Assembly: GCA_965207885.1 (NCBI GenBank)
Contig: OZ242311.1
Span: forward strand, 2,720,001 to 2,784,000
Source of the DNA: Candidatus Latescibacterota bacterium
GTDB taxonomy: Bacteria > Latescibacterota > UBA2968
DNA: 64,000 bases
Direction of reading: 5' to 3'
Positions 6,839-61,189 of this stretch are shown here, piece by piece (the stretch's first letter is position 1; each line of letters starts with the position of its first letter). The notes under the pieces were generated by a model, which was not told where the DNA came from, searched no databases, and saw only the letters and a list, made by a program, of their open reading frames with translations. The translations under genes and the position numbers were made by a program.

Positions 6839-6866
6839 CTCCTTTCCAGTCTCTGTAGATGTGTAA
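6839..6866. repeat. 28-bp RBS-bearing spacer repeated at 9501-9528
   Basis: ctcctttccagtctctgtagatgtgtaa vs ctcttatcctgtctctgtggatgtgtaa, 24/28 identical. Confidence 0.7.
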
Positions 6867-6898
6867 CAGTTTTGTAGGCGAGTTGAAATGTTTGTCCT

Positions 6899-9409
6899 TC
6901 AGTCTTTTTTTAACTCGGGAATATTGTTCGGCATAAAAGATATCTCTCGCATACCTTCGTCGCCCAAAAACTGAATTGTAACACCACCACCTATGGATAG
7001 CATGTGCTGCAAATCCTCAATATTTCTCACCTTCGCATTGTCCACAGACAAAATTACAGTATCGCCCAATAACCCTACCTGAGCGGCTTCTGACTCTGCT
7101 GGAACATCAATTACCAAAACACCATCATTGTGCTCTAATTCCACAGCCCCAATCACCGCAGATTCCCTACCATAATTTACCAGACTACGCAAGGTCGCCC
7201 CCATCCAGTCATACAGATCAGCATTGACATAGGTGCCCCAAAACTCAGCGTTTTTATCAAACGCTTGCCCCAGACCAGACCAGATGCGCACGTCAGATTT
7301 GAACCTCGAATCTTGCACACCAAATTGATCCATAGGGAAATTTTCAAATCCGACCTCAGATCCAAATTTCGCCCGATAATCTCCAGATGATGGATTGTAA
7401 AAACCTGGATCACATGTTTTCGAATGCACGTCCAGACCCAACGCCCTGTGATCTTCCGGAGGCTCATAAACCGCAAACAGATTTTCATCCACCAAATTAT
7501 CTTCGCCCTGGCAACCCGCCATTCCCATTCCACGCGGTGAATAAGCTTCTCGACGAACAAGAATATTTCGCCGAACCACATCGCCGCTATTGGGATACCA
7601 AACGTGTGGGCTGAATAAGGTAGAAATATTGTTCTCTACAGTTCGAAAAAAGCCTTCACGCAACTTGATACCACCTTGCAAGCACAAATTGCCATAAATG
7701 TGATAATGCCCAGACCCATCGTCTAAATCAATATCGTATCCATGCGCACATTGAATCCGATTGTGGCGCAAAGCAATTGGATCGACACAATCCAGCTTCG
7801 CCATCGTGCGCATGCGGGCGAATTCTTCAGGTGTTGCCTCGCCCTTTAGCTTCATCCAGTACCGATCCCGTCCCCACGAATTATAAGCTCCGTGTTCTCG
7901 CGTGGTCATTGACGTATCAAAAATATCGTTCCATTCAATCACATGTCCACCCCAACATCCATCGTTCACATTGATCGCAGCACGCGGCACATCGTAAATA
8001 CTATTATGACTGACTGTAATCTCTTTGGCCTTAGAAATGAACACACCGGCAATCTGTTTCTCTACACTGCCCAACTGCGTCATCAAATTGTCGTGAATCA
8101 CACACCGGGCCGGATAATTATTGTTCTGAGGCCCTGCTTCTAAATCGACCAACTCCTGTCCTTCATCCAGCATTTCAGACGGCAACTTTGCCATACTCTC
8201 ATTCTCAAATGGCCTGCCATTTACCATCGGTGTTTCACCCCGCATACCTTCAGGCCACCCCCACCAATGTGCCCATCGCGACCTCACGGCAGAATTATTT
8301 CCCTCAAGTAAAACAGCACTCGCACCCGTCTTTACAAACCGACACCCGCTCACAGTGACGTCCCGACTATAATCTTGAATAAAAACCCCATTCCCACCTA
8401 TGCGCTCAAACGAGCAATTTTGAACGGTGCACAATTCAGCGCCTTCAAAAACAACAGCGCCTCCCCGATACACCTTCCAATCTCCACCACTTGGTATGAC
8501 ATCCGTTTCCATAAACGTGTAAGACGTATGGGTCAGTGTCAGCCCATCCAGAGTGATATAACAAACGGGGTTGTCCTCCGACCCTCGAAACTCAAACAAA
8601 TGCCTCAGCACCACAGCTTCCACTGTGGCATCGTCAAGAGTCTGTCCTTCTTCAGGCTTGAAATACAGTGTATGAGTTTCTCGATCTAAAAACCATTCTT
8701 TAGGCGCGTCCAATTCTTCAAACACGTTTTCAATAAACATCCGCCCTTCAGCCAACACATCATACGGATTGGTTCTTCGCCCACTGTTTTGCCACCCACC
8801 TTCTACCTTCCGATCCTTCTCGTACTCAAAGGTGTAAACCCCATCTGGATCTTTTTCCAAAATACGAAAGTGCAATGTACCCCACCCCATCGACATCATC
8901 CCGTGTACAAAAGCACCCACCGGATTGGCATATCCTTTTAAGCGCGCCGAATCAATGGCATCTTGAGAGGTCTCTGGCGAAACCCATCGAATGCTGCCAT
9001 CAAAAAACCCATCTCGCGGATCAGCATTTGGATAGCGACAGCGAACCATCTTTTCACCATTGATAAAAAGCTGATCAAAATCCAAGCCCTCAGGCACCTT
9101 AGCCTTCACCAGCCCATCTCCGGCGTTTTCCCAAATCAAGTTCACAGACTCTGCCCCACTAACAACAACCTCTTCGTCCTCATAAGCCCGATAAACAATG
9201 GGCGCATCTTTCGTCCCAGAATCTTCTGCACCAAAAATGAGCGTCTCGTTCAAATAGTAAGTTCCCTGTCTCAAACACACTGTTATCGGCCCGTTTTGTT
9301 TGCATGCACGAACAACCTCTTGCGCCCGTTTTAGCGTAGCAAGAGGTTGTTCTTCGGTGCCAGAATTTCTATCGTCACCTTTAGATGAAACAAAAAGCGT
9401 CTGCCCCAT
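6899..9409 (-). CDS. Right-handed parallel beta-helix protein with C-terminal PDZ-like domain (putative carbohydrate-active enzyme)
   Basis: FVSSKGDDRNSGT..PLATL, LRQGTYYL, repeated beta-helix turns, SEAAQVGLLGDTVILSVD PDZ-like end; start 9409 with AAGGAG RBS; no signal peptide. Confidence 0.75.
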   Translation of the reverse strand: MGQTLFVSSKGDDRNSGTEEQPLATLKRAQEVVRACKQNGPITVCLRQGTYYLNETLIFGAEDSGTKDAPIVYRAYEDEEVVVSGAESVNLIWENAGDGLVKAKVPEGLDFDQLFINGEKMVRCRYPNADPRDGFFDGSIRWVSPETSQDAIDSARLKGYANPVGAFVHGMMSMGWGTLHFRILEKDPDGVYTFEYEKDRKVEGGWQNSGRRTNPYDVLAEGRMFIENVFEELDAPKEWFLDRETHTLYFKPEEGQTLDDATVEAVVLRHLFEFRGSEDNPVCYITLDGLTLTHTSYTFMETDVIPSGGDWKVYRGGAVVFEGAELCTVQNCSFERIGGNGVFIQDYSRDVTVSGCRFVKTGASAVLLEGNNSAVRSRWAHWWGWPEGMRGETPMVNGRPFENESMAKLPSEMLDEGQELVDLEAGPQNNNYPARCVIHDNLMTQLGSVEKQIAGVFISKAKEITVSHNSIYDVPRAAINVNDGCWGGHVIEWNDIFDTSMTTREHGAYNSWGRDRYWMKLKGEATPEEFARMRTMAKLDCVDPIALRHNRIQCAHGYDIDLDDGSGHYHIYGNLCLQGGIKLREGFFRTVENNISTLFSPHVWYPNSGDVVRRNILVRREAYSPRGMGMAGCQGEDNLVDENLFAVYEPPEDHRALGLDVHSKTCDPGFYNPSSGDYRAKFGSEVGFENFPMDQFGVQDSRFKSDVRIWSGLGQAFDKNAEFWGTYVNADLYDWMGATLRSLVNYGRESAVIGAVELEHNDGVLVIDVPAESEAAQVGLLGDTVILSVDNAKVRNIEDLQHMLSIGGGVTIQFLGDEGMREISFMPNNIPELKKD

Positions 9410-9413
9410 AAAA

Positions 9414-9580
9414 TCACTCCTTATCATAACCTGTTTTTCGATCTCCATCGACTTCCTTAGACCAGGTCGCGTACAGTTCCCAGGCATTAATGCTTTTCAT
9501 CTCTTATCCTGTCTCTGTGGATGTGTAAAAGGGCTGATCACGATATTCGGGTAGGAACCGCTGTTGTTATCACCCATCAT
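9414..9580 (-). pseudogene. Two coupled mini-ORFs made of sulfatase start/end remnants
   Basis: 9497-9580 MMGDNNSGSYPNIVISPFTHPQRQDKR*; 9414-9500 MKSINAWELYATWSKEVDGDRKTGYDKE*; DNA matches 15631-15648 and 15655-15688. Confidence 0.75.
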
Positions 9581-10887
9581 CACGATCCTTTCGCCCGTTG
9601 AAACCAGTCAATGAGTTGGCTTTTAAGATCGTTATAAATCTCAGGATATTGACTGGCCAAATCATTGGCTTCGCCAATATCCTGATCGAGCTTGTACAAT
9701 TCAAATTGCAATTCTTCAATAGCCGGAATAGCCTCGGCAAATTGCCCGCGATGATTAGGGCCTGTACCAACCAGTTTCCAATCGTCTTTTACCGCTCCCA
9801 TTTTCCCAAACAAATCCCAAAACACATACCGTCCTGGCAAATCTTCTTGCCCATGTGATCTCAAATGCGCAAGCAAACTCACTCCATGAACTGGATGCTG
9901 TCCATTCATTTTGGGAATCTCAATGCCAGCCGCATCCAGCACAGTGGCAAACAAATCAAAATGCACAGCACCTGCATCAGATACCATCCCTTTGGGAATA
10001 ACACCCGGCCACTGCATCACCGCAGGCACGCGGATTCCACCTTCATATGTCATTCCTTTTTGCCCGCGTAAAGGGCCATTATTGCCCGGAAATTTATCAA
10101 TCATTGCACCATTATCGCTCAAGTAGATGACAAGTGTGTTATCTACGATAGCCAACTCATGCAATGTCGCCATGATTTTACCCACACCATCATCCATATG
10201 ATCCAGCACCGCACAATAGTCGCGCTTGGGGAACTCAATACCGCGATCTTCATACTTTTTTAACCACTCGGCTTTGCCCGATGTTTTGGGTGCCTGTTCT
10301 CGCCACAAGGGACCATGCACAGCATTGTAAGGCACATAACAAAAAAACGGCTTATCACGATGTTTCCGAATAAAGTCAATCGCATAACCAGTAAACACAT
10401 CCGTCAAATGATCTTCATGCACCATGGGCTGGTCATTGTGCAAAAGGCGACTACCATCAAAAGGCCAATAGGGGTGTGCACCACCCAAAAATCCGACAAA
10501 TTCTTCAAAACCGCGTTCATTGGGCACATTGGGTGCATCATATCCCAAATGCCACTTGCCAAACATGCCAGTTTTATATCCTGCTTCCTTCAAAAACTCG
10601 GGCAAAAGTTTTACATCATCATGAATGCGCCTTGGCAACGTATCTGTTTTCTGCCCCGGCAGTGATGGGCCACGCCACATGCCGCATTCCAAAGAATACT
10701 GCCCAGAAAAAAGAGATGCACGCGTTGGCGCACAAAGTGGATTGACCCTAAACTGTGTAAAACGCACCCCATTTTTTGCAATCGCATCCATCGTTGGTGT
10801 ATCGACCTCTGTATCCCAATAACAACCCGCATCTCCATACCCCTGATCGTCTGTAACAATGATGAGAAAATTTGGTTTTGTGGCCAT
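9580..10887 (-). CDS. Cys-type arylsulfatase-family sulfatase
   Basis: KPNFLIIVTDDQGYGD, CAPTRASLFSG, GKWHLG, SDNG, KGMTYEGGIRVP. Confidence 0.93.
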   Translation of the reverse strand: MATKPNFLIIVTDDQGYGDAGCYWDTEVDTPTMDAIAKNGVRFTQFRVNPLCAPTRASLFSGQYSLECGMWRGPSLPGQKTDTLPRRIHDDVKLLPEFLKEAGYKTGMFGKWHLGYDAPNVPNERGFEEFVGFLGGAHPYWPFDGSRLLHNDQPMVHEDHLTDVFTGYAIDFIRKHRDKPFFCYVPYNAVHGPLWREQAPKTSGKAEWLKKYEDRGIEFPKRDYCAVLDHMDDGVGKIMATLHELAIVDNTLVIYLSDNGAMIDKFPGNNGPLRGQKGMTYEGGIRVPAVMQWPGVIPKGMVSDAGAVHFDLFATVLDAAGIEIPKMNGQHPVHGVSLLAHLRSHGQEDLPGRYVFWDLFGKMGAVKDDWKLVGTGPNHRGQFAEAIPAIEELQFELYKLDQDIGEANDLASQYPEIYNDLKSQLIDWFQRAKGS

Positions 10888-10895
10888 AATGATCA
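10841..10895. repeat. 55-bp 5' end shared with the sulfatase starting at 17034 (copy 16988-17042)
   Basis: 54/55 identical bases covering the start codon and KPNFLIIVTDDQG. Confidence 0.9.
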
Positions 10896-11339
10896 TTCCT
10901 TGAGTGCGGCAGCATCCTCAGCGATCCACTTCGATCCAGTCGTGCCACTCGCCGGTCCGGTTGTCTTCGGTGTTGTGTACCACATCCCAGCCGTGTAGTC
11001 CGGGTACGGGTAGTATTCTGAGTCAAAGGGATAGAAATGGATCTTGCCAAACGCGCCGGTTCGCCACCCGGCCATCTGCAATGTCTTCATAAAGGTGGGG
11101 ATGTCGGGATTGAGTCGGTAGCCATTGGAGAGCAGACCGTGGCCTCGGCTGGTGAGTCCCGTGGCAATGCCCGCCCGAGCCGGACAGCAGACCGGGTTGT
11201 TGGAAAATGCATTGGTGAAGGTTACGCCCATGCTCTGGAGGCGTTTCAGGTTCGGCAGGTCGCAGATGCCGTTCAGGGCCGCTTCCAGCCACTTCGCCCC
11301 CATCTGATCGATGATGTTGGGTTTGTTTTGTGACTGCAT
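10893..11339 (-). pseudogene. Chimeric truncated sulfatase pseudogene
   Basis: 5' 29 bp identical to 4997-5025; body copies 2930-3345 with 12-bp and 7-bp deletions; tail resembles the PhyH end at 888-925. Confidence 0.9.
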
Positions 11340-11401
11340 AATGACTCCCCTGATGCGCTCTTTGAGCTTTTTAGTCGATAATCTTTGTTTCTACAGTCAT
11401 T

Positions 11402-12748
11402 TTATTTTTCGAAAATTGTCCCGGGCCACGGGTAAGCGTTGGATCCAGCCTCATCCTCGATGGGGCCTTCCGGCAGTGTGGCTTGCCAATCCATGACCTG
11501 CTCTGACATCTGCTTGACCAGGGTCTCTTCAAATTTGGCGTGATTGACGAGTTCCATTGGATCTGCAGGAATGTTGTAAAGTTCGACACGACTTCTGTCC
11601 GGGTTGAGAAGCAGCTTCCAGTCACCCTCGCGGATTGAAAGGATCGGGCTTTTGTGAAGGCAATGGCCGTGAACCCGAAATCGCCACTCCCACATCAACG
11701 GCGTCGTGCGATCTACCGAGTTACCTCGAAAGGCGGCTGTCATATTCTCGCCCTGCAGACCAATGTTGTCGGGAATGTCCACGCCAGCGATGGAACAAAA
11801 AGTAGGTAACAGGTCTATGGCACATAAGGGCGTCGTGTTGTCAACTTTGCCTTTTGGTCCGCCACTGCCTGGCCACCGAAGAATGAAAGGGGTTCGCACA
11901 CCGCCTTCGTAGAGGCTTCTTTTACGACCTCGAAAGGGACCAGAAGAACCGACGCCACTGTGTGACGCATTTCGGACGTGGATATCCTCAGGGCCGTTAT
12001 CAGCTGAGAAGATGACAATCGTGTTGTCGGAAAGGCCCAGTTGATCCAGCCGATCCATGAGCCGTCCAATGTGGTAATCTGCGTTGGTAACGACAGAATA
12101 GTAGATGCGTAGTGCACCTTTGTGTTTGTCTTCCAGGCCCTGAGCGGTAAGATTCATATAGGGTTCCATCTGCTCCTCTGTAGGATCCAGAGTGGCGTGG
12201 GTGTCAAGCAACCACGCTTGAACAAAGAAAGGCTCATCTTGATGTCTTTCGATGAAAGATATGGTTTCATCTATAATTACCTCTGTAGATTGAGATCTGC
12301 CTTCGGGAATCTCAATGGGGGGTCCGACCGCATTGAATGTTTTGGATTCGTCAATTCCATAAGCCGTGGTATTAGGTGCTTCTTCGCCACTTCCCAGGTG
12401 CCACTTGCCAAAGTGGCCAACAGCATATCCACTTTGTTGCAGGAGATCCGTGATGGTCGTTGCATCGGGATCCAACCAATCTGGCATGCCGCGTAGGGCG
12501 TTCTGCTCGTGACGGGCAAAATGGCCATGTATGCCCCAGTGGGCAGGAAATCGACCCGTCATGACCGCTGCCCGGCTGGGTGAGCACACACCCGAGCAAA
12601 CATAGAATTGTGAGAAGAGAATGCCCTGCGAAGCGAGCCGATCCAGATTTGGCGTTTTTACAAACTGGTGGCCGTAGCAACTCAAGTCACCCCACCCCCA
12701 ATCGTCGGCGAAGACAAATACGATATTGGGTCTTTTCGATTCAGCCAT
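11402..12748 (-). CDS. Cys-type sulfatase (GalNAc-6-sulfatase/arylsulfatase-like)
   Basis: RPNIVFVFADDWGWGD, CSPSRAAVMTG, GKWHLG, ADNG, RGRKRSLYEGGVR. Confidence 0.93.
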   Translation of the reverse strand: MAESKRPNIVFVFADDWGWGDLSCYGHQFVKTPNLDRLASQGILFSQFYVCSGVCSPSRAAVMTGRFPAHWGIHGHFARHEQNALRGMPDWLDPDATTITDLLQQSGYAVGHFGKWHLGSGEEAPNTTAYGIDESKTFNAVGPPIEIPEGRSQSTEVIIDETISFIERHQDEPFFVQAWLLDTHATLDPTEEQMEPYMNLTAQGLEDKHKGALRIYYSVVTNADYHIGRLMDRLDQLGLSDNTIVIFSADNGPEDIHVRNASHSGVGSSGPFRGRKRSLYEGGVRTPFILRWPGSGGPKGKVDNTTPLCAIDLLPTFCSIAGVDIPDNIGLQGENMTAAFRGNSVDRTTPLMWEWRFRVHGHCLHKSPILSIREGDWKLLLNPDRSRVELYNIPADPMELVNHAKFEETLVKQMSEQVMDWQATLPEGPIEDEAGSNAYPWPGTIFEK

Positions 12749-12788
12749 TGCGGTTCTCCTTAATAAAGTAGGCGGTAAGCCTTTGCCC

Positions 12789-14129
12789 CTACGATGCCAG
12801 GGCTTTCAGGTAGGTGGCGCCTTGCGTGTCGGCGTGTGCCTGGACCCAATCAGATAGTCGGTTTCGGTGATCCGTCAGGATCTGAATGAATTCAGGATCA
12901 TTGGCGAGGTTCTTTGTTTCAGTGGGATCCGAAACCATATCGACAAGCATTTCTTCCGACGTGCCATCGTAGTGGAAGATGGAGTACTTGTACCTGGCAG
13001 ACCTTACCATTCTACCGCCAACAGTTTCGGCAACGACGAATTCCCGCCAATCGGGTTGCTCGCCCAGAGCAAGGGGTTTCAAGCTTCTACCGGGTAGTGA
13101 ATCTGGAATTTCTCCTTTGGCAAAGTCGCATAACGTCGGAAGCAGATCGATCCCATTATTGACCAAAGCATCGATCTGACCTGGAGAAACTCTTCCAGGC
13201 CAACTGATCGTGAGCGGTACGTGTGACGACGCTTCGTAGAACGACCGCTTCATTGTCAATCCGTGTTCCCCATCATGATCGCCATGGTCACTTGTAAATA
13301 TGACAACCGTACTCTCCCGCAGACCGGTGTCATCGAGCGCATCCAGTATCACACCCAACTGTTGGTCCAGGTCCTCCATATAAAAACGGTAAGCCGCACG
13401 GTAGGTCCGCCACTCGTGTTCGGTCCAGTGGATTGCACGCTGACCGAATCTTCGGTTGAGGCCGATTTCGATTGTCTCCTCGTCTCCCAGTGTCCCATCA
13501 CGGAATCTCTGCATCCACTTTGGCTCATCCTGAGGGGGTGCGTGATTATCCGGCAAGGGAGGCAAGTTGTCTCCTGGATCCGAAGGATGTGTCGGCTTCC
13601 CATCCTCATCCAGGACTTTACATATATCGTGTGGATTAATGAACGATGCCCAGAGGAAGAACGGGCGATCGGAATCTCTGTTTTTGAGAAAATTAGCAGA
13701 TCTCTCCGCAAGCTCATCCCTCTGATCGGTTGTGAGCGACTCAAATCCGAATTCCTCTGCCTTTTCTTTTGTGAAAACCTGGGTGCCCTCTACGTGCAGC
13801 TTACCGCCGGCGTACGTATCATATCCACAATTTCGGAGGAGTGTCCCCATCAATGGCGTATCAATATGGTCCAAAATCCGCGGATGTTCCGAAGCCATCC
13901 CCTTGGAGTTATGCTCCAGGCCATCAAAAGTGTGCGGCATATGGCCTGAGACCAGGGCGTACCTGAATGGGACACAAACTGGATTGGAAACGTAGGTGAG
14001 CTCGAATCTCTTACCACCTGCAGCCAGTTTATCCAAATTGGGCGTACTGACATAAGGGTCACCGGAATAGCTCGCCATTCTGTGATGTTGTTGGTCCGTT
14101 GTTATGAGAATGATATGCGGTCGTTCCAT
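12789..14129 (-). CDS. Cys-type sulfatase (choline-sulfatase-like)
   Basis: RPHIILITTDQ, CVPFRYALVSG, GKLH, NPHD, SDHG; start 14129 with AAAGGA RBS. Confidence 0.9.
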   Translation of the reverse strand: MERPHIILITTDQQHHRMASYSGDPYVSTPNLDKLAAGGKRFELTYVSNPVCVPFRYALVSGHMPHTFDGLEHNSKGMASEHPRILDHIDTPLMGTLLRNCGYDTYAGGKLHVEGTQVFTKEKAEEFGFESLTTDQRDELAERSANFLKNRDSDRPFFLWASFINPHDICKVLDEDGKPTHPSDPGDNLPPLPDNHAPPQDEPKWMQRFRDGTLGDEETIEIGLNRRFGQRAIHWTEHEWRTYRAAYRFYMEDLDQQLGVILDALDDTGLRESTVVIFTSDHGDHDGEHGLTMKRSFYEASSHVPLTISWPGRVSPGQIDALVNNGIDLLPTLCDFAKGEIPDSLPGRSLKPLALGEQPDWREFVVAETVGGRMVRSARYKYSIFHYDGTSEEMLVDMVSDPTETKNLANDPEFIQILTDHRNRLSDWVQAHADTQGATYLKALAS

Positions 14130-14169
14130 ATCTGTTCCTTTCGCGTTGCGGACGAATTGTAGCAAGATG

Positions 14170-15642
14170 TCAACGAGGATCGCCAGCTTCAATTGTTCGT
14201 TCCAGCAGCCTGCTGCGCATTGCTTCTTCCCGATCTCGATAATCCGGATTTCCTGCCAGATTCACCAGTTCGCCCGGGTCGTTCTGCAAGTCGTAAAGTT
14301 CAGAACGATCATTCACATAATGTGCGTATTTCCACTTCTCGTTTCGAACCATGCGACCCCGAGAAAGGAAGAACGTTCCCGACTCAACCAGCGGCAATTC
14401 AGGTACGGGCTCCGTCCGACTTATGCCGGCTTTCAGCGCGTCCAGTTCTGCTTCTGGTCCTCCCTCTGGCAATGGCTGACGGCTGCCAACTTCCGCATAG
14501 GTACAGTCTCTTTCTGGAGCCATACCCGACATCATATCTGTCACACTTCTACCCTGAACACCCGACGGGATCGAGATTCCGCTACTCTGGAGTAATGTGG
14601 GCATCAAGTCGATTTGCTCAATTTGCAGTGCGTTTGTTGCACCATCCCGTGCATGTTCCAAACCCCTTACGATCAATGGGACCTGGACAATGCAGTCGTA
14701 GAATGCAGCAGTTTTCCTAATGAGTCCGTGTTCGCCCAGGTACTCACCGTGGTCACCTGTGGCAACAATGATGGTGTCGTCCCAACGACCAAGCGCTTTT
14801 AGTCCATCAAAGAATTTGCCCAGGCAGTCATCCAGGTGCCTGAGCATGCCGTAGTAATACGCCATTGTCTGGCGCAGTTGCTCGTCATCCATGAGATGCA
14901 GCCACCCGCCGTGATAATAGACTTGCTGAACGAATGGTTTTGAGTCCAATTCACCCTCAGGTCTATGTGGGAGAGGCATGTCCTCTGGCCTGTACATCGT
15001 GGCAAAAGGTTCGGGAGCTCGATAGGGCGGATGAACATCGGAAAAGCTCAACCACACAAACGAGGGCTCGACACCCTTCCGTTCGAGATAATCGAGGGCA
15101 TGATTCACGTTGGCTCTTGCTGGAGATTCAGCAGGATCGAAAGGGTAGGTTCCGCCATACCAGATTGGGTTTGGGTGATCTCCCCAACGGAAACGTCTTG
15201 TTTGTGATTCGAACACGGATGGGTCGATGGGTATTGCAGGCCCAGGAAATGGCTTCCCATAGGCTTCTCGCTGCTTTTGCCGAAGTGGTGACTCTTCAAT
15301 ACACGCTTCAAATCCTGCAGTTTCGGCATCTGGAAAACAGTGGTTTTTCCCAAATAGGCCACAGCCGACACCAGCATCTTTCAATAGCCCTGGCAGGTGA
15401 AATCCTTCCTTTTCTTGCATCAACAGCGTGTTGTCTCTGGAACCTGTAACGCTGGGATAACGACCCGTGAAAAATGCGACCCGTGATGCGACGCAGAGCG
15501 GAGAAGGTACGGTGCAGTTTTCAAACCTGATGGCTTCGCTGGCAAAGCGATCCAGATGAGGTGTCGCTCCGACGGGATTGCCATAGCATCCCAATGCGCG
15601 AGCGGCAAGATGCTCAATGGTGATTACGACAATGTTTTTCAT
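14170..15642 (-). CDS. Cys-type sulfatase (CxAxR variant)
   Basis: KNIVVITIEH, CVASRVAFFTG, GKNH, DVHPP, GDHG. Confidence 0.88.
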   Translation of the reverse strand: MKNIVVITIEHLAARALGCYGNPVGATPHLDRFASEAIRFENCTVPSPLCVASRVAFFTGRYPSVTGSRDNTLLMQEKEGFHLPGLLKDAGVGCGLFGKNHCFPDAETAGFEACIEESPLRQKQREAYGKPFPGPAIPIDPSVFESQTRRFRWGDHPNPIWYGGTYPFDPAESPARANVNHALDYLERKGVEPSFVWLSFSDVHPPYRAPEPFATMYRPEDMPLPHRPEGELDSKPFVQQVYYHGGWLHLMDDEQLRQTMAYYYGMLRHLDDCLGKFFDGLKALGRWDDTIIVATGDHGEYLGEHGLIRKTAAFYDCIVQVPLIVRGLEHARDGATNALQIEQIDLMPTLLQSSGISIPSGVQGRSVTDMMSGMAPERDCTYAEVGSRQPLPEGGPEAELDALKAGISRTEPVPELPLVESGTFFLSRGRMVRNEKWKYAHYVNDRSELYDLQNDPGELVNLAGNPDYRDREEAMRSRLLERTIEAGDPR

Positions 15643-15645
15643 CTC

Positions 15646-17034
15646 TTAGCTCCTATCAACTTCCTCAGACCAGGCCGCGTACAGATCCTGCAGGCGTTCC
15701 ACGACTTCGGGATGCTGATCAATCAGATCTTGACTCTCGGAGGGATCTTCCTTCAGGTTAAACAGGCAGGTATTCTGGAGAAGCTCTGTGCGTTCAACGA
15801 TCCCATCGCAGGACGGCTCTTGACCTCTCCTGCCACCTTTATGCAACAGTTTCCAATCACCAGAGCGCACGGCATAACTATCGCCCCAGCGCCAGAAGAG
15901 GTCTCGCTGGTCTGCGATTTTTGTGACATCTTTTGGGATGGGTTGACCATCCAATCCTTCGGATAACTCGATGCCTGCTGCCTGTAAACAGGTCGGAAGA
16001 ATATCGAGCGTTGAGATCGTCCTGTCACAGATCGTTCCAGATGCCGACTCATTTGGACGGGCGAGGATAAATGGCACGTGAATTCCGCCCTCCCAGAGCG
16101 TAAACTTGCTCCCGGCAAGCGGCAGGTTGCAGGCACCGGTGTTCGGTGCGCCTCCGTTGTCTGAAAACATGATCACGATGGTGTTGTCGGCAAGCGATAG
16201 CTGATCCAACGTGTCCAGAAGGCGACCGATATTGTCGTCGAGGCAATTCAGGTTCGCCAGATAGTATCTGCGAAACTCGTCGGCATTGATCTCGCCGAGG
16301 ATTCTATACCTTTTGAACCAGTCCCCATACCCGCCCATGGTCTCCGGGTCGTAGTTTGGAATCTCCCTTACGCCGTGCTTGTCGAGGTATCGTTTGGGCA
16401 CCTGGTGGATCAGGTGATGCACGGAGTTGTAAGAGAGTGTCACAAAGAAAGGTTCTTCCTGATGGCTCTCGAGAAAATCGATTGTCGCGTCGGTGAAGAT
16501 TTCCGTCAGATACCCTTGCCCAAATTCTTTGTAATCCCGGTTGTGCATGAGCGGCCCAACAACCGCGCTGTGCCCTTTTGGATCGGGCGTGCGGTCTTCG
16601 ATGTCTTTGGTGAGGAGGAAATAGTCGTGGCCATGTGCTGAGAATCCGAGAAACTCGTCATAGCCATGGTTCAACGGATATTCGTGAGCCTCGTGATCGT
16701 GAAAGCCCAGGCCGTAATCGTTCTTACCGAAACGCGCTGTGGTATAGCCGTTAGCCTTCATGATTTCGGTGATGTTCTTTTCTGTTTCAGGATGTCCGCA
16801 AAAAAAGGAAGATTTCGGATCCCAACGCACCTGGTGTCTCCCCGTATTCCATCCGGCGCGGGAAGGGCTGCATACAGGAGCTGTCACATAGGCCTGTGAA
16901 AAGAGAACGCCGCGCTCAGCGAGCCGGTCCATGTTTGGCGTTTGCACGTCTGGCGCATGATGACTGAATGCAGTCAGATCGCCGTAGCCCTGATCGTCTG
17001 TAACAATGATGAGAAAATTTGGTTTTGTGCCCAT
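15646..17034 (-). CDS. Cys-type arylsulfatase-family sulfatase
   Basis: KPNFLIIVTDDQGYGD, CSPSRAGWNTG, SDNGG, KFTLWEGG; upstream in-frame ATG at 17061 also possible. Confidence 0.92.
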   Translation of the reverse strand: MGTKPNFLIIVTDDQGYGDLTAFSHHAPDVQTPNMDRLAERGVLFSQAYVTAPVCSPSRAGWNTGRHQVRWDPKSSFFCGHPETEKNITEIMKANGYTTARFGKNDYGLGFHDHEAHEYPLNHGYDEFLGFSAHGHDYFLLTKDIEDRTPDPKGHSAVVGPLMHNRDYKEFGQGYLTEIFTDATIDFLESHQEEPFFVTLSYNSVHHLIHQVPKRYLDKHGVREIPNYDPETMGGYGDWFKRYRILGEINADEFRRYYLANLNCLDDNIGRLLDTLDQLSLADNTIVIMFSDNGGAPNTGACNLPLAGSKFTLWEGGIHVPFILARPNESASGTICDRTISTLDILPTCLQAAGIELSEGLDGQPIPKDVTKIADQRDLFWRWGDSYAVRSGDWKLLHKGGRRGQEPSCDGIVERTELLQNTCLFNLKEDPSESQDLIDQHPEVVERLQDLYAAWSEEVDRS

Positions 17035-17063
17035 AATGATCACCCGCTCCAATCCCCGCATTG

Positions 17064-18545
17064 TTACCTGTCAGCCCCGCCGAGAAGCTGCTCTCTGGTC
17101 ATTACCTTGATTGGTGGCAGGTTATCGACCATTCCCGCGTCCGTGCGTCGAAGCTCATCAATGGTCCCTTGCCGAAGTTGGGTGAGCAACTCGTGGTGAT
17201 CGGATTCCAAAGCGAGGTTTTCCAGTTCCTCGGGGTCATTCTCGAGATCGTACATCTCTTCGATCTCCCCGGGGACGAGCCAGCGGATATATTTGTACTT
17301 TCCCATGCACAGAGATACCCACCAGGGGATAGGCGGATTGCCTATTGGCTCGCCACAGCCGACATCGGTATCTTCTCCAAAATAATGACCCGTACACTCC
17401 ATCAGCAGCGGGCGATCCCATTCAGCGTTGGGATCGGAGAGCAATAGTGTCAGGTCCTCCCCGTGCATCTTCCAGGGTTGTTTCATGCCGATCAACGAGA
17501 GAAAGGTAGGCGGGATATCCTGGCCGCCGATTGGCACATCGCATACTGTGCCTGCAGGAATCCGTCCCGGCAGCCGCATGATCATCGGTGCTTTGATATT
17601 GGCATCATAGGGCGCCACCTTGAGTCGAAAGCCGTGCTGTCCCCAGGCAAATCCCTGGTCCGACGTAAAGACGACCAGGGTATCATCCAATTGCCCCATC
17701 TCCTCTATGGTGCCGATCACCCTGCCAACCCCTTCATCCAGGGCGCACACGCCCCGGTTGTATTGTTGTTCCCAATCGGTGAGGGTCCGTCCATCCCGGA
17801 TGCCTACCGGTTGGCCGTGATCTCCCTCGCGCCAAACACCGTAGTCCCGCATATGTGTCGCCTTGGTCGGGCGCGGCGGATAGATGTCTTCTGGCGTGGG
17901 GACCTGGGAAACATCTGGATAGTCCTGGAGATGGCGGTCAGCCACTTTCCAGGGGCCGTGTACTGCGTCATAGCACAGCCAGAGGTGCCAGGGCTTATCC
18001 GGTTCTTCTGCCCGTCCGCGGAGAAATTCAAGTGCATACTCCGTGTAGTTATCGGTAGAATAGCCGCCAACCGGTTCCGGCTCCCTCCCGTTGATACTCA
18101 TATTCTGATTGACATAATAGGGCCCGTATTTCTCGGGTTGGCTGTGGTCCCAGATGGCAGAAAAATCCCAGTACCGACCGTGACCGTGATCGGGACCTGT
18201 GTGCCATTTGCCGACGATGCCTGTGTACCAACCGTTCTCGCGGAGATTCTCGAGCCAGTACGGACACTGGTCTGGATCGCGGACATAGTTTGGGTAGCTC
18301 GAGGGCAGGTGCATGCTCATCACGCCATGCGGCAATTTTCCGGTCAGGTACGTGGCGCGTGAAGGCGCACACCAGGCACTGGTATAGCAGTTGGAAAAAC
18401 GCATCCCCTCATGGGCGAGACGATCGATGTTTGGCGTACTGATCCACGAATGCGCCTCGGGGTAGCAACTCACAGACCGAAAGCTCTGATCGTCGGTGAA
18501 GATGTATAAAATGTTGCTCGGACGGTTCAATTGATCATCGTTCAT
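17064..18545 (-). CDS. Cys-type sulfatase (N-acetylglucosamine-6-sulfatase-like)
   Basis: NILYIFTDDQ, CAPSRATYLTG, GKWH, SDQGFAWGQHG. Confidence 0.9.
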   Translation of the reverse strand: MNDDQLNRPSNILYIFTDDQSFRSVSCYPEAHSWISTPNIDRLAHEGMRFSNCYTSAWCAPSRATYLTGKLPHGVMSMHLPSSYPNYVRDPDQCPYWLENLRENGWYTGIVGKWHTGPDHGHGRYWDFSAIWDHSQPEKYGPYYVNQNMSINGREPEPVGGYSTDNYTEYALEFLRGRAEEPDKPWHLWLCYDAVHGPWKVADRHLQDYPDVSQVPTPEDIYPPRPTKATHMRDYGVWREGDHGQPVGIRDGRTLTDWEQQYNRGVCALDEGVGRVIGTIEEMGQLDDTLVVFTSDQGFAWGQHGFRLKVAPYDANIKAPMIMRLPGRIPAGTVCDVPIGGQDIPPTFLSLIGMKQPWKMHGEDLTLLLSDPNAEWDRPLLMECTGHYFGEDTDVGCGEPIGNPPIPWWVSLCMGKYKYIRWLVPGEIEEMYDLENDPEELENLALESDHHELLTQLRQGTIDELRRTDAGMVDNLPPIKVMTREQLLGGADR

Positions 18546-18560
18546 TTTGGTTCTCCGTAA

Positions 18561-18610
18561 TCTATATGGTCAGGTAACCAGACCATGGTTCGCTTCTATT
18601 TCCTCTGTTC
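18561..18610. repeat. ~50-bp intergenic repeat, copy 1 (copy 2 at 23938-23988)
   Basis: 48/51 identical; contains imperfect hairpin atggtc-a-gg-taa-cc-a-gaccat. Confidence 0.85.
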
Positions 18611-18637
18611 TGCATCTATCCGACTCTGCGCCCCTGA

Positions 18638-19705: not shown

Positions 19706-19722
19706 GGAAATAACCCTTCTTT

Positions 19723-19769
19723 CTTCAATACTGAACCATTGTACGGACTTCAATACCGAACCATTGTAC
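19723..19769. repeat. Tandem 22-bp direct repeat (period 25) overlapping promoter
   Basis: cttcaatactgaaccattgtac / cttcaataccgaaccattgtac. Confidence 0.85.
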
Positions 19770-19791
19770 AAAAAAAAGAGTTGGATTTCAA
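19763..19791 (-). promoter_or_regulatory. Sigma70-like promoter for the leftward gene run
   Basis: TTGAAA-17 bp-TACAAT on minus strand. Confidence 0.6.
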
Positions 19792-21518: not shown

Positions 21519-21626
21519 AGCTATAATCAGAAATCCCAAAAACACGTTTGTCTTTGGCATAGACACAGTCTTTCTCCGCCACAGCAAGCTGTCGGTGGCG
21601 AGCAACAGTATGTTTGGGGTGCTCAC
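21477..21626 (-). pseudogene. Start-codon stubs of a sulfatase and of a secreted protein
   Basis: AGGAG + GTG 21626 MSTPNILLLATDSL..., in frame with ATG 21560 MPKTNVFLGFLIIALF...; stops at 21477. Confidence 0.6.
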
Positions 21627-41566: not shown

Positions 41567-41615
41567 ATTATTGCTTCACCTCCAATGGAGCCACAAGAAG
41601 GTATCTCATTTGCGC

Positions 41616-53853: not shown

Positions 53854-53881
53854 TGATTCTACCCCCGTTGTTCGTATTGCG

Positions 53882-58861: not shown

Positions 58862-61036
58862 TCAGAGATGCCCGCCAGACTCCAGGATACGCTCTTCCAC
58901 TCTGGGAGGGGTCGGTCGGAGTCCAAAATCTCTCCACCCCCAGTCCACATGGATTTTGGGCATGTCGAATTCAAAATACCAGCGAATACTGATGGGATCT
59001 CGATCGATACCAAAATATCCGAGGAAAAGCGCACATTTTCCGGTGACTTCCTCGATTACGTCGAAAGGGGTCAGATCGTGAAACTCTTCAATCTCTTCTT
59101 CCACCTCCAGGTAACGGTGCAGATCGGCTTCGTAAGACTCCGCCTGGTTGGGCCTGAGGCTCGTGAGATCAAGAGGCTCGTGCGCGTTCCACCTGGGCAG
59201 GTCATATTGCTCAGATCCATCCGGACAGAAGGTCCAGATTGGCGTGGACCATGCGTATTCACCGTCGATTTGGCGGAGACGAACGTAATAGGCTCCCTCT
59301 CGCAGCGGTATCTCGTCGGTGTGGGTCAGATCTATATCGAGTGCATCGGGATGCCATGAGTGGAGACAACGGTCATTCCGAATCAAGTCTATTCGCTGCA
59401 CGGGAGCACAGGCGTGCGCGCAAATAGTGATCTCAGCAGGCGCCGAGATTTTGGCCTCGCTGCCCGCAGTGTGTCCGTTGACATCTACGGTCAGGATGAT
59501 GCGCGCCCCAGTGGTGGCGAAGGTGCGCCGATCCCGAATTGCCTTCCAGATTTCGTTACGCTCGCAGCGCGCTGCCCAAACGGCGGCGATCGGTCCGTTC
59601 CCATACCCGGTGTCTCGGAAGTTCAAACCAACATTGTGCCACCTCCCGAAGTAGTCTTTGGCGGCGATTGGAGCGCCCATCGTAGTAAGGTGGGTGTCCC
59701 CCGATCCAATAACGGCTGGGCGAAAGCCACAGCGCAGGGCCCACTGGAGCACCCATTCAAAGCAGCCATGCCCGCTGGCGACCTCAAGAAGCGGCTCGTG
59801 ACTGGGACGATAATCGTACCATTGGGGGGGACCACCCCCGATGTGGGCTTCAAGGATCACATCCTCTCGATCTCCAAACTCGGCCATCACTTCGTCCATG
59901 GTGCAGAAGGTGGGGGGATAGGTTTCAGTCCATTCACGGTAGATCACGTTCCGATCCCCTCCAGGTCTCGGGTGAACCTCTGAAGCGAGAAAAGGAACGT
60001 AAGTCCCCGGCTCATCGTTGTTCCGATAGGCTTGCTGATAGGCACGCCACAGCTCTGGTCGATCCTCCTGGATTGGCGGAACGGCCGGTCCCGGCGCTCC
60101 AAAGTCCAGCCGGCCGACTCTCCGCAACTGTTCGTGTCTCCGCTCAGGATGAATCTTGAAGGTGGGATCGTCCAGTAGCGACATGCTAATGTCGCCCCAT
60201 CCGTGACAATGGAGATCTCCCCAGAGGAGACGGCGGTCGTGCTGTTCCTTGCAGAGGATGGGATTGCTCACTGCCCTTAGACCGTGGCGTTTGTCTTCCG
60301 CGATCAGACGGATAAGGCCGGGTTCTGATATGCGAATGTCTTCCAGAATCACGAGCCCGCTGTCACTGGAGCCCAACGAGATGGATTTGGGCAAACCCTC
60401 AACCGCTGAAATCGGACCAGAGAAGGTCACTCGACCCTCAAATTGTTCGCAGATATTGTGGTTTGCATCGAAGGCCATCAGATGCAGTGCAAAGGCCTCA
60501 TCGGGCGTAACGATCGACGGGCCCAGAAGCCGAAGCAGCGCCGGCACAGGATTGGATGTGATGTGAATCCTGCAAGGATTGCAGGCCAGTTCCCGATAGA
60601 CGCCATCCCCTGTCCGATCCACGGCGCTGGTAATCCGCCCCAGAGTCGTTCCATCATAAACGGCGCTCCCCGCGCCTCCATAGCTCGAATCGCCAATCTG
60701 AATGGTGAAGGAATCACCGGTTTTCATCTCACCCTCATCGACCAGCACCTGGGCGAATCCCGGACGGTGGGACTGCTTTTCTGAATTGACGATCAGGCGT
60801 AAGGTCGCATCACATTGGGTTTTTAGAGTGACGAAATCACGTCCCTCTGGGTTGTAGTCCTGAATTCGATGCGAGAACAGAAACGAGTGCCGCTGAAAAA
60901 GAAAACCGCCGCCGGCAGTTATGGTTTCTGATGCGGTGGCAGTAATCTTCCACATCCCCAACTTGCCTGCGGGCAATTCCAGATCGTGCCCACAGCTACG
61001 TGAGCCGTCACTTCCGTGAAATTCGACCTCGAGCAT
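58862..61036 (-). CDS. DUF3604/PHP-like metallohydrolase, paralog of 53882; 5' frameshift suspected
   Basis: LWGDLHCH, EVASGHG, IGSGDTH, RTFATTG; RBS-bearing start at 61100 is out of frame. Confidence 0.75.
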   Translation of the reverse strand: MLEVEFHGSDGSRSCGHDLELPAGKLGMWKITATASETITAGGGFLFQRHSFLFSHRIQDYNPEGRDFVTLKTQCDATLRLIVNSEKQSHRPGFAQVLVDEGEMKTGDSFTIQIGDSSYGGAGSAVYDGTTLGRITSAVDRTGDGVYRELACNPCRIHITSNPVPALLRLLGPSIVTPDEAFALHLMAFDANHNICEQFEGRVTFSGPISAVEGLPKSISLGSSDSGLVILEDIRISEPGLIRLIAEDKRHGLRAVSNPILCKEQHDRRLLWGDLHCHGWGDISMSLLDDPTFKIHPERRHEQLRRVGRLDFGAPGPAVPPIQEDRPELWRAYQQAYRNNDEPGTYVPFLASEVHPRPGGDRNVIYREWTETYPPTFCTMDEVMAEFGDREDVILEAHIGGGPPQWYDYRPSHEPLLEVASGHGCFEWVLQWALRCGFRPAVIGSGDTHLTTMGAPIAAKDYFGRWHNVGLNFRDTGYGNGPIAAVWAARCERNEIWKAIRDRRTFATTGARIILTVDVNGHTAGSEAKISAPAEITICAHACAPVQRIDLIRNDRCLHSWHPDALDIDLTHTDEIPLREGAYYVRLRQIDGEYAWSTPIWTFCPDGSEQYDLPRWNAHEPLDLTSLRPNQAESYEADLHRYLEVEEEIEEFHDLTPFDVIEEVTGKCALFLGYFGIDRDPISIRWYFEFDMPKIHVDWGWRDFGLRPTPPRVEERILESGGHL

Positions 61037-61189
61037 CGGGCTCGTTACCCGGCACAGGTTGGACTGTGATGCTGACGCGCTGCACTCGTGATTTCGGCAT
61101 AGGTTCTCCTCAACAGCCGTTCGACGAATCACGGTGCCAGAACAAGTTCATGTTCAAGATTCGGTGGATGGGATTCATTTGCAATGTGA

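What the first reader, a model, noticed from the sequence alone, without database searches (positions are those of the whole stretch)
6839..61178. Intergenic spacers are built from gene termini: a candidate gene-cassette turnover system without attC sites
Seen: many spacers translate to the start and/or end of an absent gene, often as a mini-ORF coupled to its neighbours. Strong cases: 9414-9580, 10893-11339, 24004-24068, 21585-21626 (MSTPNILLLATDSL), 28042-28209. Weaker cases: 11371-11400, 35015-35089, 41568-41609, 49355-49432, 50491-50529, 61110-61178, 29908-29928. Unrelated genes also share near-identical 5' ends or RBS spacers, and adjacent genes differ visibly in GC. Inference: gene bodies are repeatedly deleted or swapped while RBS, start and stop signals are kept. 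This could reflect homology-facilitated recombination at termini and/or selection to keep long operons translated. No integrase or attC array is visible, so it would be integron-like behaviour by another route.
Basis: partly seen in the sequence, partly recalled or inferred. Interest (0 to 1): 0.85.

Follow-up and report, generated by a model that had tools for sequence, protein, structure and literature searches.

The report
Gene stubs from operon duplication and loss
In a sponge-associated bacterium, the gaps between genes of a long sulfatase operon are the leftover first and last codons of deleted genes, and related genomes show that repeated duplication and patchy deletion, with no sign of a dedicated cassette machine, has reshuffled the gene order.

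Summary
Of 12 listed spacers, 6 are remnants of gene ends (5 of 5 "strong" cases, one of them only probable, and 1 of 7 "weak" ones). One is gene-derived but internal and antisense. Five have no support. Relatives with 93-99% identical DNA carry full genes where the stubs lie: G007 has an intact 526-aa sulfatase and a ~280-aa PhyH-type dioxygenase where the window has pseudogene 10893-11339.

Gene order differs in nearly every genome, always on one strand. All orders seen fit paths along one repeated unit of about 12 genes, with stubs where that model predicts lost copies. Junctions are imprecise. The 3' flank of one gene is cut at eight different points in 11 genomes, and junctions carry 0-8 nt of microhomology. 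No integrase lies within 1 Mb, and there is no attC-like repeat or Rfam hit.

I read this as tandem duplication followed by random loss in a bacterial operon. Deletion ends are confined to the dispensable gene, probably to keep the neighbours' ribosome-binding sites. Mini-ORF coupling is not above chance. Independent sponge metagenome contigs confirm the junctions. The gene turnover is real, but I found no sign of integron-like machinery.

The parts
15..19771 (-). Co-directional array of 17 genes: sulfatases, PhyH-type dioxygenases, an aldo-keto reductase and a beta-helix protein. I read it as two degenerate copies of one repeat unit with complementary losses.
   Evidence: Pfam scan. Gene orders in relatives. 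The two-copy reading is my inference.
9497..9580 (-). Mini-ORF 1 (27 codons) in the 3' flank of sulfatase 9580-10896. Its start overlaps that gene's stop (TGATG) and its stop overlaps the next ATG (ATGA).
   Evidence: The first 60-91 nt of this flank go with the sulfatase into every context seen. That it looks like a sulfatase N-terminus ('YPNIVI') is by eye only.
9414..9500 (-). Mini-ORF 2 (28 codons). It has an S6-type start, a stub resembling the end of sulfatase S7 (9445-9476), and the RBS of the beta-helix gene. Its stop lies 4 nt before that gene's ATG at 9407-9409.
   Evidence: (32 nt, 94%, E 2e-7). G017 has 135 nt of the S6 start at the same place.
10893..10929 (-). The last 37 nt, stop included, of a PhyH-type dioxygenase gene (P1'). 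It holds the RBS of sulfatase 9580-10896.
   Evidence: 34 of 34 nt identical to the full genes of G008, G010 and G017.
10930..11339 (-). The 5' 410 nt of a sulfatase (S1'), broken by a 12-nt and a 7-nt deletion.
   Evidence: 91% identical to window 2929-3345 and to G007's intact 526-aa gene at the same place. Pfam Sulfatase, E 5e-12.
11371..11401 (-). The last 31 nt, stop included, of an enolase-superfamily (MR/MLE) gene, x25. It abuts the stop of sulfatase 11402-12748.
   Evidence: 31 of 31 nt identical to G008's full gene. Family assignment.
21585..21626 (-). A probable sulfatase N-terminal stub (RBS, GTG start, 'STPNILLLATDSL').
   Evidence: A longer version is in G006. No intact source gene was found.
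23938..23988 (-). A second copy of the 51-nt leader that precedes sulfatase 17064-18545 (first copy at 18561-18610).
   Evidence: 94% identical, and only two copies in the genome. In G003, G007 and G009 the same leader follows a different gene.
24004..24068 (-). A start stub of 8-11 codons of an unidentified gene, joined to the last ~9 codons of a copy of PhyH gene P5.
   Evidence: In G010 the two parts are in frame (20 codons). In the window they are 2 nt out of frame.
28045..28209 (+). The last 54 codons and the stop of an HpcH/RhmA-type aldolase gene.
   Evidence: residues 207-260 of 260, 78% identity. Pfam alone found nothing.
41577..41615 (.). A spacer piece similar to an internal part (46236-46271) of the + strand sulfatase 45849-47336. 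It is antisense to that gene.
10831..10895 (-). A 5' end shared with sulfatase 15646-17061 (16978-17042). The rest of the two genes is unalike at DNA level.
   Evidence: (55 nt at 98%).

Best explanation
The window is part of a very long, one-stranded catabolic operon array of sulfatases, PhyH-type dioxygenases, lyases and reductases. The genome is rich in sulfatases. Its closest named relatives are Candidatus Latescibacterota MAGs.

The array evolves by duplication of multi-gene blocks followed by patchy loss of the redundant copies. This is the tandem-duplication-random-loss pattern known from mitochondrial genomes.

Loss happens by recombination-independent deletions at little or no microhomology. 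A deletion survives only if both ends lie inside the dispensable gene or genes. What is left is therefore the start of the first lost gene and the end of the last lost one. Further deletions trim these pieces to roughly 20-60 nt.

The 3' stub tends to stay because, in this tightly packed operon, it holds the ribosome-binding site of the next gene. Short stubs are also less likely than long dead stretches to cause polarity.

SHOWN:
- the stubs themselves
- full genes at the same places in relatives
- variable breakpoints
- microhomologies at junctions
- gene orders that fit one circular order

INFERRED:
- the repeat unit
- the role of selection on ribosome-binding sites and polarity
- whether the duplicates arose inside a genome or came in by recombination with a relative whose array was ordered differently
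For: (1) Relatives share the DNA at 93-99% identity but differ gene by gene in presence and order, with breaks at gene borders.

(2) Orders in 9 genomes and 6 more loci (two of these repeat earlier orders) all read as paths along one unit: S6 S5 x34 P2 AKR S4 x25 x61 S2 S1 P1 S3. All are on one strand.

(3) Genomes that span more than one turn have a stub where the model puts the second copy.
- G017: S4 stub ... S4.
- L028/G020 and G002: S3 ... S3 stub, followed by S6.

(4) Losses are reciprocal. The window keeps P1 beside gene 15-872 and has a 37-nt P1' stub before S3. G008 has the stub beside its copy of 15-872 and the full gene before S3.

(5) G007 has both genes intact where the window's pseudogene lies. 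2003 nt are missing from the window.

(6) 26 of 35 collapsed stub rows touch a gene end, against 2.06 expected for uniform placement. Some rows are duplicates or artefacts; by hand I count about 19 of 28.

(7) Start-plus-end stubs of one gene recur in different genes: S3 46+48 nt, S7 135+50, P2 58+54, P3 ~255+51, x18 43+136.

(8) Microhomology at junctions, by my reading:
- GCGCAT (L027)
- TGACCTT (G017)
- an 8-nt overlap (L028, P3)
- GGA (G010)
- 0-4 nt elsewhere

(9) Flanks are cut at many different points.

(10) The family is hugely expanded, with at least 151 PF00884 matches in the genome. Array genes S4 and S11 each have a 73-79% paralogue at another locus in every genus genome searched.

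(11) An independent metagenome contig of 7961 nt matches window 8800-11145 with one difference. Another sample holds alternative joints.

(12) In E. coli deletion mutants, a longer leftover 3' end of the deleted gene goes with better recovery of the downstream gene (rS 0.38, P 0.024, n 55; passages of PMC8547470).
Against: - No genome seen holds a complete, undamaged tandem duplicate of the unit. The unit is my reconstruction by hand, not a formal gene-order test.
- A stub can match another genome better than its own genome's full copy. G017's S4 stub is 156/156 identical to L028's S4 but 151/156 to G017's own. L028's S3 5' stub is 46/46 identical to the window's S3 but 37/39 to its own. The duplicates are therefore old, or came from relatives, rather than being fresh tandem copies.
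- Two paralogous PhyH genes (P1 and P1') are cut at the same position, nt ~806 of 843, in what look like separate events. Pure chance explains that poorly.
- The beta-helix gene and the S7-like stub before it do not fit the unit.
- The mini-ORF coupling test was not significant.
- The genomes are kin, so the counts are not independent events.
- Gene calls are crude (longest ORFs, no gene finder), so the N-terminal class is fuzzy.
- No control genome was put through the same pipeline, so I cannot say how unusual the stub density is.
Confidence: 0.7

Rival explanations
1. The duplicates do not arise inside a genome. Co-resident relatives with differently ordered arrays exchange DNA. Integration is anchored on one homologous gene and closed by an illegitimate joint (homology-facilitated illegitimate recombination; the name is recalled). 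This adds partly redundant segments, which are then pruned. This rival concerns only the source of the duplicates; the loss step is the same.
For: - Stubs are identical to another genome's gene but 3-5% different from the same genome's full copy.
- Single genes (9580-10896 at 99.6% nt to G017; 24112-25539 at 98%) are more alike than their flanks, which are 93-96%.
- One metagenome sample holds several arrangements side by side.
- Per-gene protein identity to relatives ranges from 85 to 99.8%.
Against: - An old tandem duplication with lineage sorting of the copies gives the same picture.
- The circular order of the genes is more naturally explained by a tandem repeat.
- No transfer event was dated or rooted here.
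Confidence: 0.35
2. The patchwork spacers, made of 12-60 nt pieces of several genes in a row, are made in single complex events by replication template switching at microhomologies (FoSTeS/MMBIR-like; the name is recalled), rather than by a series of simple deletions.
For: - Spacers are built of several short pieces from different genes. Examples are 9410-9579, 10897-11401, and the 19-nt P2 start before S4 in G017, L025 and L029.
- An antisense internal 30-nt piece lies at 41577-41615.
- Microhomologies of 3-8 nt occur at junctions.
Against: - The pieces lie in the order and orientation of genes that are neighbours in some relative. For example, P2 stands before S4 in G006, and G012 has a start-plus-end stub of P2 there.
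- Longer and shorter versions of the same stub exist in different genomes: x25 124 vs 31 nt, S6 135 vs ~12 nt, S4 201 vs 156 nt. That fits stepwise erosion.
Confidence: 0.12
3. A dedicated, so far unknown recombination system moves RBS-to-stop gene units, behaving like an integron without IntI or attC.
For: - Gene-sized units with only 13-40 nt of upstream flank appear in many contexts.
- Two paralogous PhyH genes are cut at the same nucleotide.
- One deletion joins one RBS to another.
Against: - No recombinase was found in the window. The 4 PF00589 matches of the genome all lie more than 1 Mb away.
- The spacers share no repeat apart from one 51-nt pair, and there is no Rfam match.
- Breakpoints are scattered and stub lengths vary.
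- Orders are constrained to one circular order rather than being free permutations.
Confidence: 0.06
4. The stubs and odd junctions are artefacts of assembling a mixed population.
For: The closest named records are metagenome-assembled genomes, and several arrangements coexist in one sample.
Against: - The window's arrangement across both main stubs is reproduced by a 7961-nt contig from another study with one difference.
- The same stubs occur in separately assembled genomes: 9414-9580 in G008 and 24004-24068 in G010.
Confidence: 0.02

Closest known systems
Tandem duplication-random loss (TDRL) model of mitochondrial gene-order change. The model is recalled; of PMC4430869 I saw only the search listing and the start of the abstract.
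   Same: A block is duplicated and one copy of each gene is lost. The order changes without inversion. Spacers hold remnants of the lost copies at predictable places.
   Different: Here it acts on a bacterial chromosome, in a protein-coding catabolic operon of an expanding gene family, with about 12 genes per unit. Exchange between relatives possibly adds to it. The leftovers are trimmed to gene ends that carry translation signals.
Integron gene-cassette arrays (IntI, attI, attC)
   Same: Co-oriented, closely packed genes whose presence and order differ between close relatives.
   Different: There is no integrase nearby and no attC-like element. Breakpoints are imprecise. Stubs of genes are left behind, and the order is constrained to a circular path.
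Pseudogene erosion into spacers in reductive genomes such as Rickettsia and Mycobacterium leprae (recalled, not looked up)
   Same: Intergenic DNA is the decayed remains of genes.
   Different: This genome is large (6.2 Mb) and its families are expanding. The remains sit inside working operons and are cut down to the first and last codons.
Engineered in-frame deletion scars of the Keio collection (passages of PMC8547470)
   Same: The start and the last codons of the deleted gene are kept so that the next gene's ribosome-binding site and coupling survive. Longer 3' leftovers help the downstream gene.
   Different: Those scars are designed and in frame. The natural stubs are of variable length and mostly out of frame.
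Gene amplification and innovation-amplification-divergence in bacteria (recalled)
   Same: Tandem amplification of catabolic genes, followed by divergence and loss.
   Different: That model says nothing about gene-order permutation or terminal scars.

Membership tests
Integron | A tyrosine recombinase (IntI) beside the array | tested here: not met
   The Pfam scan of 46 window ORFs found no recombinase. The genome's 4 PF00589 matches lie at 0.66, 1.70, 4.84 and 5.82 Mb, while the window is at 2.72-2.78 Mb. No IntI-specific model was run.
Integron | An attC-type recombination site at the 3' end of each cassette, with junctions at a fixed point | tested here: not met
   Self-comparison finds only one 51-nt spacer repeat pair. 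Flanks are cut at 8 points in 11 genomes and at 6 points in 7. No dedicated attC model was available.
Tandem duplication-random loss | All orders can be derived from a tandem repeat of one block by deletions, without strand changes | tested here: met
   Orders, read by hand against the unit S6 S5 x34 P2 AKR S4 x25 x61 S2 S1 P1 S3. The beta-helix gene and the S7-like stub are not explained. No formal algorithm was run.
Tandem duplication-random loss | Remnants of the lost copy at the predicted place | tested here: met
   - S4 stub before P1' in G008 and G017.
- S3 stub between P1' and S6 in L028/G020 and G002.
- S6 start after S3 in G017 and the window.
- P2 stubs before S4 in G012, G017, L025 and L029.

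Tandem duplication-random loss | An intermediate with both copies still complete | tested here: not met
   None was seen in the 13 distinct arrangements looked at. There were only partial cases: two U1 copies in G010, and S1 with S1' in G007.
Microhomology-mediated (illegitimate) deletion | Short identical stretches at both parental sides of the joint | tested here: inconclusive
   6-8 nt at 3 joints (L027, G017, L028 P3), 2-4 nt at 3 (G010 S11, window stub, G008 P1), 0-1 nt or a 2-nt filler at 2 (L028 S3, G010 x18). All are read by eye, with no chance model.
Translational coupling through bridging mini-ORFs | Spacers tiled by ORFs that end at the next start more often than chance allows | tested here: not met
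   20 spacers were tested. Coverage was 0.77 against 0.68 +/- 0.056 in shuffles, reached by 5.8% of 500 shuffles. A stop near the next start occurred in 11 of 20 against 9.1 +/- 2.0, reached by 24%. The chain at 9414-9580 is real but is a single case.

The most novel reading that the evidence does not exclude
The shuffling is not just passive decay. The array may be a recombination hot spot in which recurrent short motifs at gene borders guide microhomology joints or template switches. Candidate motifs are Shine-Dalgarno sequences and the conserved sulfatase 5' end that unlike genes share. The genome would then gain, lose and reorder RBS-to-stop gene units at a high rate. That would act as an integrase-free cassette system that diversifies the sulfatase repertoire of sponge symbionts, with exchange between co-resident relatives.
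Probability: 0.1. Interest if true: 0.85.

Novelty: new variant of a known kind. Interest (0 to 1): 0.5.

Why it matters
Bacterial operon order is usually stable over long distances. Here, species of one genus with 93-99% identical DNA differ gene by gene. The scars let the history be read directly, as they do in mitochondrial genomes.

If the reading holds, it gives a worked example of how a very large enzyme family grows and is pruned inside operons; this genome has at least 151 sulfatase matches. It also shows what constraint deletions must respect in packed operons, namely keeping the 3' end that carries the next gene's ribosome-binding site.

It also carries a practical warning for annotation. 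Short ORFs and 'N-terminal extensions' in such spacers are often gene stubs. In my own crude calls, the long-ORF starts of at least two genes swallowed such stubs, and one 148-aa 'gene' (10893-11339) is a pseudogene.

Three searches of the paper library (listings only) returned mitochondrial, plastid or eukaryotic cases and no bacterial operon case under these terms. That is weak evidence that it has not been described.

Tried and rejected
- Pfam on the 65-aa translation of 28012-28206 found nothing. A database search then identified it.
- Searching that fragment in 41 relatives found only shorter fragments, in G003 and G008.
- Rfam gave no match in the window.
- Promoter-like and terminator-like sites in 1-20000 were not above shuffles (23 vs 17.1 +/- 4.4; 22 vs 19.2 +/- 4.0). 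This gives no evidence either way on operon structure.
- Protein-level search of window spacers against the genome's own ORFs had a noise floor near E 2e-4, judged from the reversed control. Stubs of 12 residues or fewer cannot be shown that way.
- Three 'spacers' turned out to hold real genes or miscalls, not stubs: 53202-53881 (a gene with a 48%-identical paralogue), 47088-47360 (the end of the + strand sulfatase 45849-47336) and 38927-39466 (a small gene).
- The match of 9512-9577 to the 'N-terminus' of a 425-aa ORF in L028 is an artefact of a long ORF reading into the flank of the sulfatase. I dropped it.
- The apparent 'S2 start fused to an S1 body' in 10893-11339 is not a chimera. G007's intact copy starts the same way.
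- I first computed the S3 stub of L028 as an in-frame deletion. Reading the sequence showed it is 1 nt out of frame.
- Genome-wide scan: 147 non-repeat spacer hits (56 N, 50 C, 41 internal; reversed control 1). The N class is inflated by longest-ORF starts, truncated paralogues can mimic C stubs, and no control genome was run. I use it only as a hint that the phenomenon is not confined to the window.
- Parts of the stretch without RNA-run contigs are not interpreted.
- Supplementary files of papers were not needed and not opened.
Full report
WHAT THE WINDOW IS

The window lies at 2,720,001-2,784,000 of a closed 6.23-Mb genome with 51% GC. Nearly all of its genes are on the minus strand.

A Pfam scan of 46 ORFs found 17 sulfatases. 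An 18th lies on the + strand at 45849-47336, where I had first called a spurious antisense ORF. The scan also found eight PhyH-type dioxygenases (plus a ninth PhyH domain fused to the alginate lyase), polysaccharide lyases, DUF3604 proteins, oxidoreductases and one TnpB.

The whole genome has at least 151 sulfatase-family matches. The closest named records are Candidatus Latescibacterota metagenome-assembled genomes. Runs labelled sponge metagenome hold the stretch.

CHECKING THE OBSERVATION

I translated all 12 listed spacers and compared them with genes of the same genome and of relatives.

All five 'strong' cases hold, one of them only as probable.

1. 10893-11339 is a pseudogene.
   - It begins with the 5' 410 nt of a sulfatase. 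This part is 91% identical to the window's own 1786-3414 and carries a 12-nt and a 7-nt deletion.
   - It ends with the last 37 nt of a PhyH gene.
2. 9414-9580 consists of two mini-ORFs chained by overlapping stop and start codons.
   - The second begins like sulfatase S6.
   - It continues with a 32-nt match (94%) to the 3' end of sulfatase S7.
   - It ends 4 nt before the next gene's ATG.
3. 24004-24068 joins a start stub of 8-11 codons to the last ~9 codons of a copy of PhyH gene 29039-29941. It is therefore the start of one gene and the end of another.
4. 28045-28209 (+) encodes the last 54 residues of a 260-residue HpcH/RhmA-type aldolase.
5. 21585-21626 is only probable. G006 carries the same RBS and start with a longer sulfatase-like N-terminus, but I found no intact source gene.

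Of the seven 'weak' cases:
- One holds. 11371-11400 is the last 31 nt of an enolase-superfamily gene.
- One is gene-derived, but from an internal, antisense piece (41577-41615).
- Five have no support.

The hits are well above chance:
- Window spacers gave 32 hits, against 0 with reversed spacers and 3 in five shuffles.
- All nine loci gave 285 hits, against 0 reversed.

RELATIVES

Twenty genomes of the same genus are held. I fetched 80 kb from each of G008, G010 and G017, and five further loci around the sulfatase 9580-10896 (L025-L029). Two more loci from that call were left out as redundant. I also fetched six loci around sulfatase 11402-12748. Two of those six repeat arrangements already seen.

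The DNA is 93-99% identical, but the presence and order of single genes differ in almost every genome. The breaks in similarity fall at gene borders.

Full genes lie where the window has stubs.
- G008, G010 and G017 have the complete PhyH gene before, or in place of, sulfatase 9580-10896.
- G007 has an intact 526-aa sulfatase and a ~280-aa PhyH gene between the orthologues of 11402-12748 and 9580-10896. 2003 nt are missing from the window.

The losses are reciprocal. G008 and G010 have a 30-36-nt stub of the other PhyH copy at the place where the window keeps it whole (888-1730).

Relatives have stubs of their own. Among them are start-plus-end remnants of single genes:
- S3: 46+48 nt
- S7: 135+50 nt
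- P2: 58+54 nt
- P3: ~255+51 nt
- x18: 43+136 nt

There are also multi-gene deletions that leave the start of the first gene and the end of the last. In G017, 30 nt of one gene are joined to the last 262 nt of a sulfatase six genes away.

HOW THE JUNCTIONS LOOK

The junctions are not site-specific.
- The 3' flank of sulfatase 24112-25539 is conserved up to eight different end points in 11 relatives.
- The 3' flank of gene 21688-23157 is conserved up to six end points in seven relatives.
- In one search, N-end rows measured 19-255 nt and C-end rows 24-262 nt, with medians near 35-45 nt.

Where both parental sequences can be read, the joints carry little microhomology (read by eye):
- 6-8 nt at three joints
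- 2-4 nt at three joints
- 0-1 nt or a 2-nt filler at two joints

Some joints nibble into the last codons of the retained gene. The C-terminus of sulfatase 31557-33548 reads differently in three genomes. The stop of 11402-12748 is supplied by stub-derived sequence.

WHY I READ IT AS DUPLICATION PLUS LOSS

1. All rearranged genes stay on one strand.
2. Every order I saw can be read as a path along one unit, S6 S5 x34 P2 AKR S4 x25 x61 S2 S1 P1 S3, with different entry and exit points.
3. Genomes whose path exceeds one turn carry a stub where the second copy should be.
   - G017: S4 stub ... P1' S3, S6 stub, x34, S4.
   - L028/G020 and G002: S3 ... P1', S3 stub, S6.
4. The window itself reads as two copies with complementary losses.
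   - Copy 1: S6 S5 S4 [x25 end] [S1' start] [P1' end] S3.
   - Copy 2: [S6 start] ... P2 AKR S2 S1 P1.
5. A second, smaller unit (S9, P5, NT, S10) shows the same behaviour.

This is the tandem-duplication-random-loss picture known from mitochondria. It is my reconstruction by hand.

Points that count against it:
- No complete intermediate was found.
- The beta-helix gene and the S7-like stub do not fit the unit.
- Stubs can be identical to another genome's gene yet 3-5% different from their own genome's full copy.

The last point means the duplicates are old, or came in by recombination with relatives. One metagenome sample holds several arrangements at once, so exchange between relatives is plausible.

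WHY ENDS AND NOT MIDDLES

The enrichment of terminal pieces is large: 26 of 35 collapsed rows against 2.06 expected. Before that count I dropped 80 rows. These were 40 from families outside the array, 15 that were the next gene's own 5' flank, and 25 artefacts of long ORFs or miscalls. By hand I count about 19 of 28 distinct stubs as terminal.

Much of this enrichment follows from geometry. A deletion that spares the neighbours must end inside the lost gene, so what remains is that gene's start and end.

What is not trivial is how short the leftovers are. Longer and shorter versions of the same stub exist in different genomes (x25 124 vs 31 nt; S6 135 vs ~12 nt; S4 201 vs 156 nt). That fits stepwise erosion.

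The 3' stubs contain the next gene's ribosome-binding site. An example is 10893-10929 before the ATG at 10885-10887. In E. coli deletion mutants, a longer leftover 3' end goes with better recovery of the downstream gene (passages of PMC8547470). I therefore infer selection on translation signals, and against long untranslated stretches that would invite polarity. The polarity part rests on general knowledge of Rho and was not tested.

WHAT IT IS NOT

- There is no recombinase in the window. The four tyrosine-recombinase matches of the genome lie more than 1 Mb away.
- The spacers share no repeat apart from one 51-nt pair, which is the leader of sulfatase 17064-18545.
- There is no Rfam match.
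- Assembly error is unlikely. A 7961-nt contig from another study's sponge metagenome matches 8800-11145 with one difference. The same stubs occur in separately assembled genomes.
- Contigs from RNA libraries carry S3 and S4. One carries the S3-stub joint (9626 to 10849). The tool warns that this does not prove transcription.

- Shared 5' ends are real. Sulfatases 9580-10896 and 15646-17061 share their first ~19 codons and 12 upstream bases almost exactly, while the rest of the genes is unalike at DNA level and only about a third identical as protein by my reading of the alignment. This looks like a recombination or conversion joint in the conserved sulfatase 5' end.
- Per-gene GC ranges from 0.42 to 0.63. 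For the GC-rich sulfatase 29925-31538 this need not mean foreign origin. A 73% identical paralogue sits at another locus in every genus genome searched.

LIMITS

- Gene calls are longest ORFs with a crude start rule.
- The genomes are kin, so the counts are not independent.
- The circular-order fit and the microhomologies were read by hand.
- No control genome was analysed.
- A genome-wide scan hints that gene-end stubs are common elsewhere in this genome (50 C-end hits of 147; reversed control 1), but it has known artefacts.
- Three literature searches (listings only) found the duplication-loss model only for organelles and eukaryotes. Passages of 'The Life-Cycle of Operons' (PMC1480536) do not mention remnants or pseudogenes.

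VERDICT

The 'cassette system' reading is not supported.

The best explanation is block duplication, possibly fed by exchange between relatives, followed by microhomology-poor deletions filtered by the need to keep neighbours expressed. My confidence in it is 0.7.

Noticed in passing
window 37802-38926 (insertion roughly 37761-39105): A TnpB (IS605-family OrfB) gene is present here but absent from the same place in G010. The genome has 24 matches to it, 11 of them full length at 77-100% identity.
   Followed up: partly
window 45849-47336 (+): The real gene here is a + strand sulfatase of 495 aa with GC 0.62. The minus-strand ORF 45972-47087 that a longest-ORF call picks is spurious.
   Followed up: yes
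window 53035-53913 (-): A 292-aa ORF without a Pfam family has a 48%-identical paralogue elsewhere in the genome. It overlaps the over-long ORF call of sulfatase 51537-53201, whose true start is probably further downstream.
   Followed up: partly
window about 39100-39420 (-): A small ORF upstream of the TnpB looks by eye like a rhamnose-mutarotase-type protein (recalled resemblance). The Pfam call that included it failed on a stop codon and was not repeated for it.
   Followed up: no
window 28340-29000 (-): A DUF6036/DUF2204 nucleotidyltransferase gene with a small upstream ORF forms a two-gene module. It is present in the window and G008 but missing from G010.
   Followed up: no
window 41616-43850 (-): One 744-aa protein combines an alginate-lyase domain with a PhyH-type dioxygenase domain.
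   Followed up: no
G000 618524-620067 and 2340879-2342213; same loci in relatives: Array sulfatases 29925-31538 and 11402-12748 each have a 73-79% paralogue at a conserved locus in all genus genomes searched. Several copies of the second one carry one in-frame stop.
   Followed up: no
relatives G010, G017, L027-L029 (gene x34): An AAA_14 + DUF4143 ATPase gene comes and goes inside the sulfatase array. The window lacks it cleanly between 12789-14192 and 11402-12748.
   Followed up: partly
whole genome G000: 147 non-repeat spacer pieces match coding sequences elsewhere in the genome, 50 of them at the last 30 nt of a gene (reversed control 1). Gene-end stubs may therefore be a genome-wide feature.
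   Followed up: partly
flanks of the array in G008, G010, G017: The neighbouring minus-strand gene arrays (families x5-x22) also differ in order and presence between these genomes and hold stubs, for example x18 with 43+136 nt in G010.
   Followed up: no
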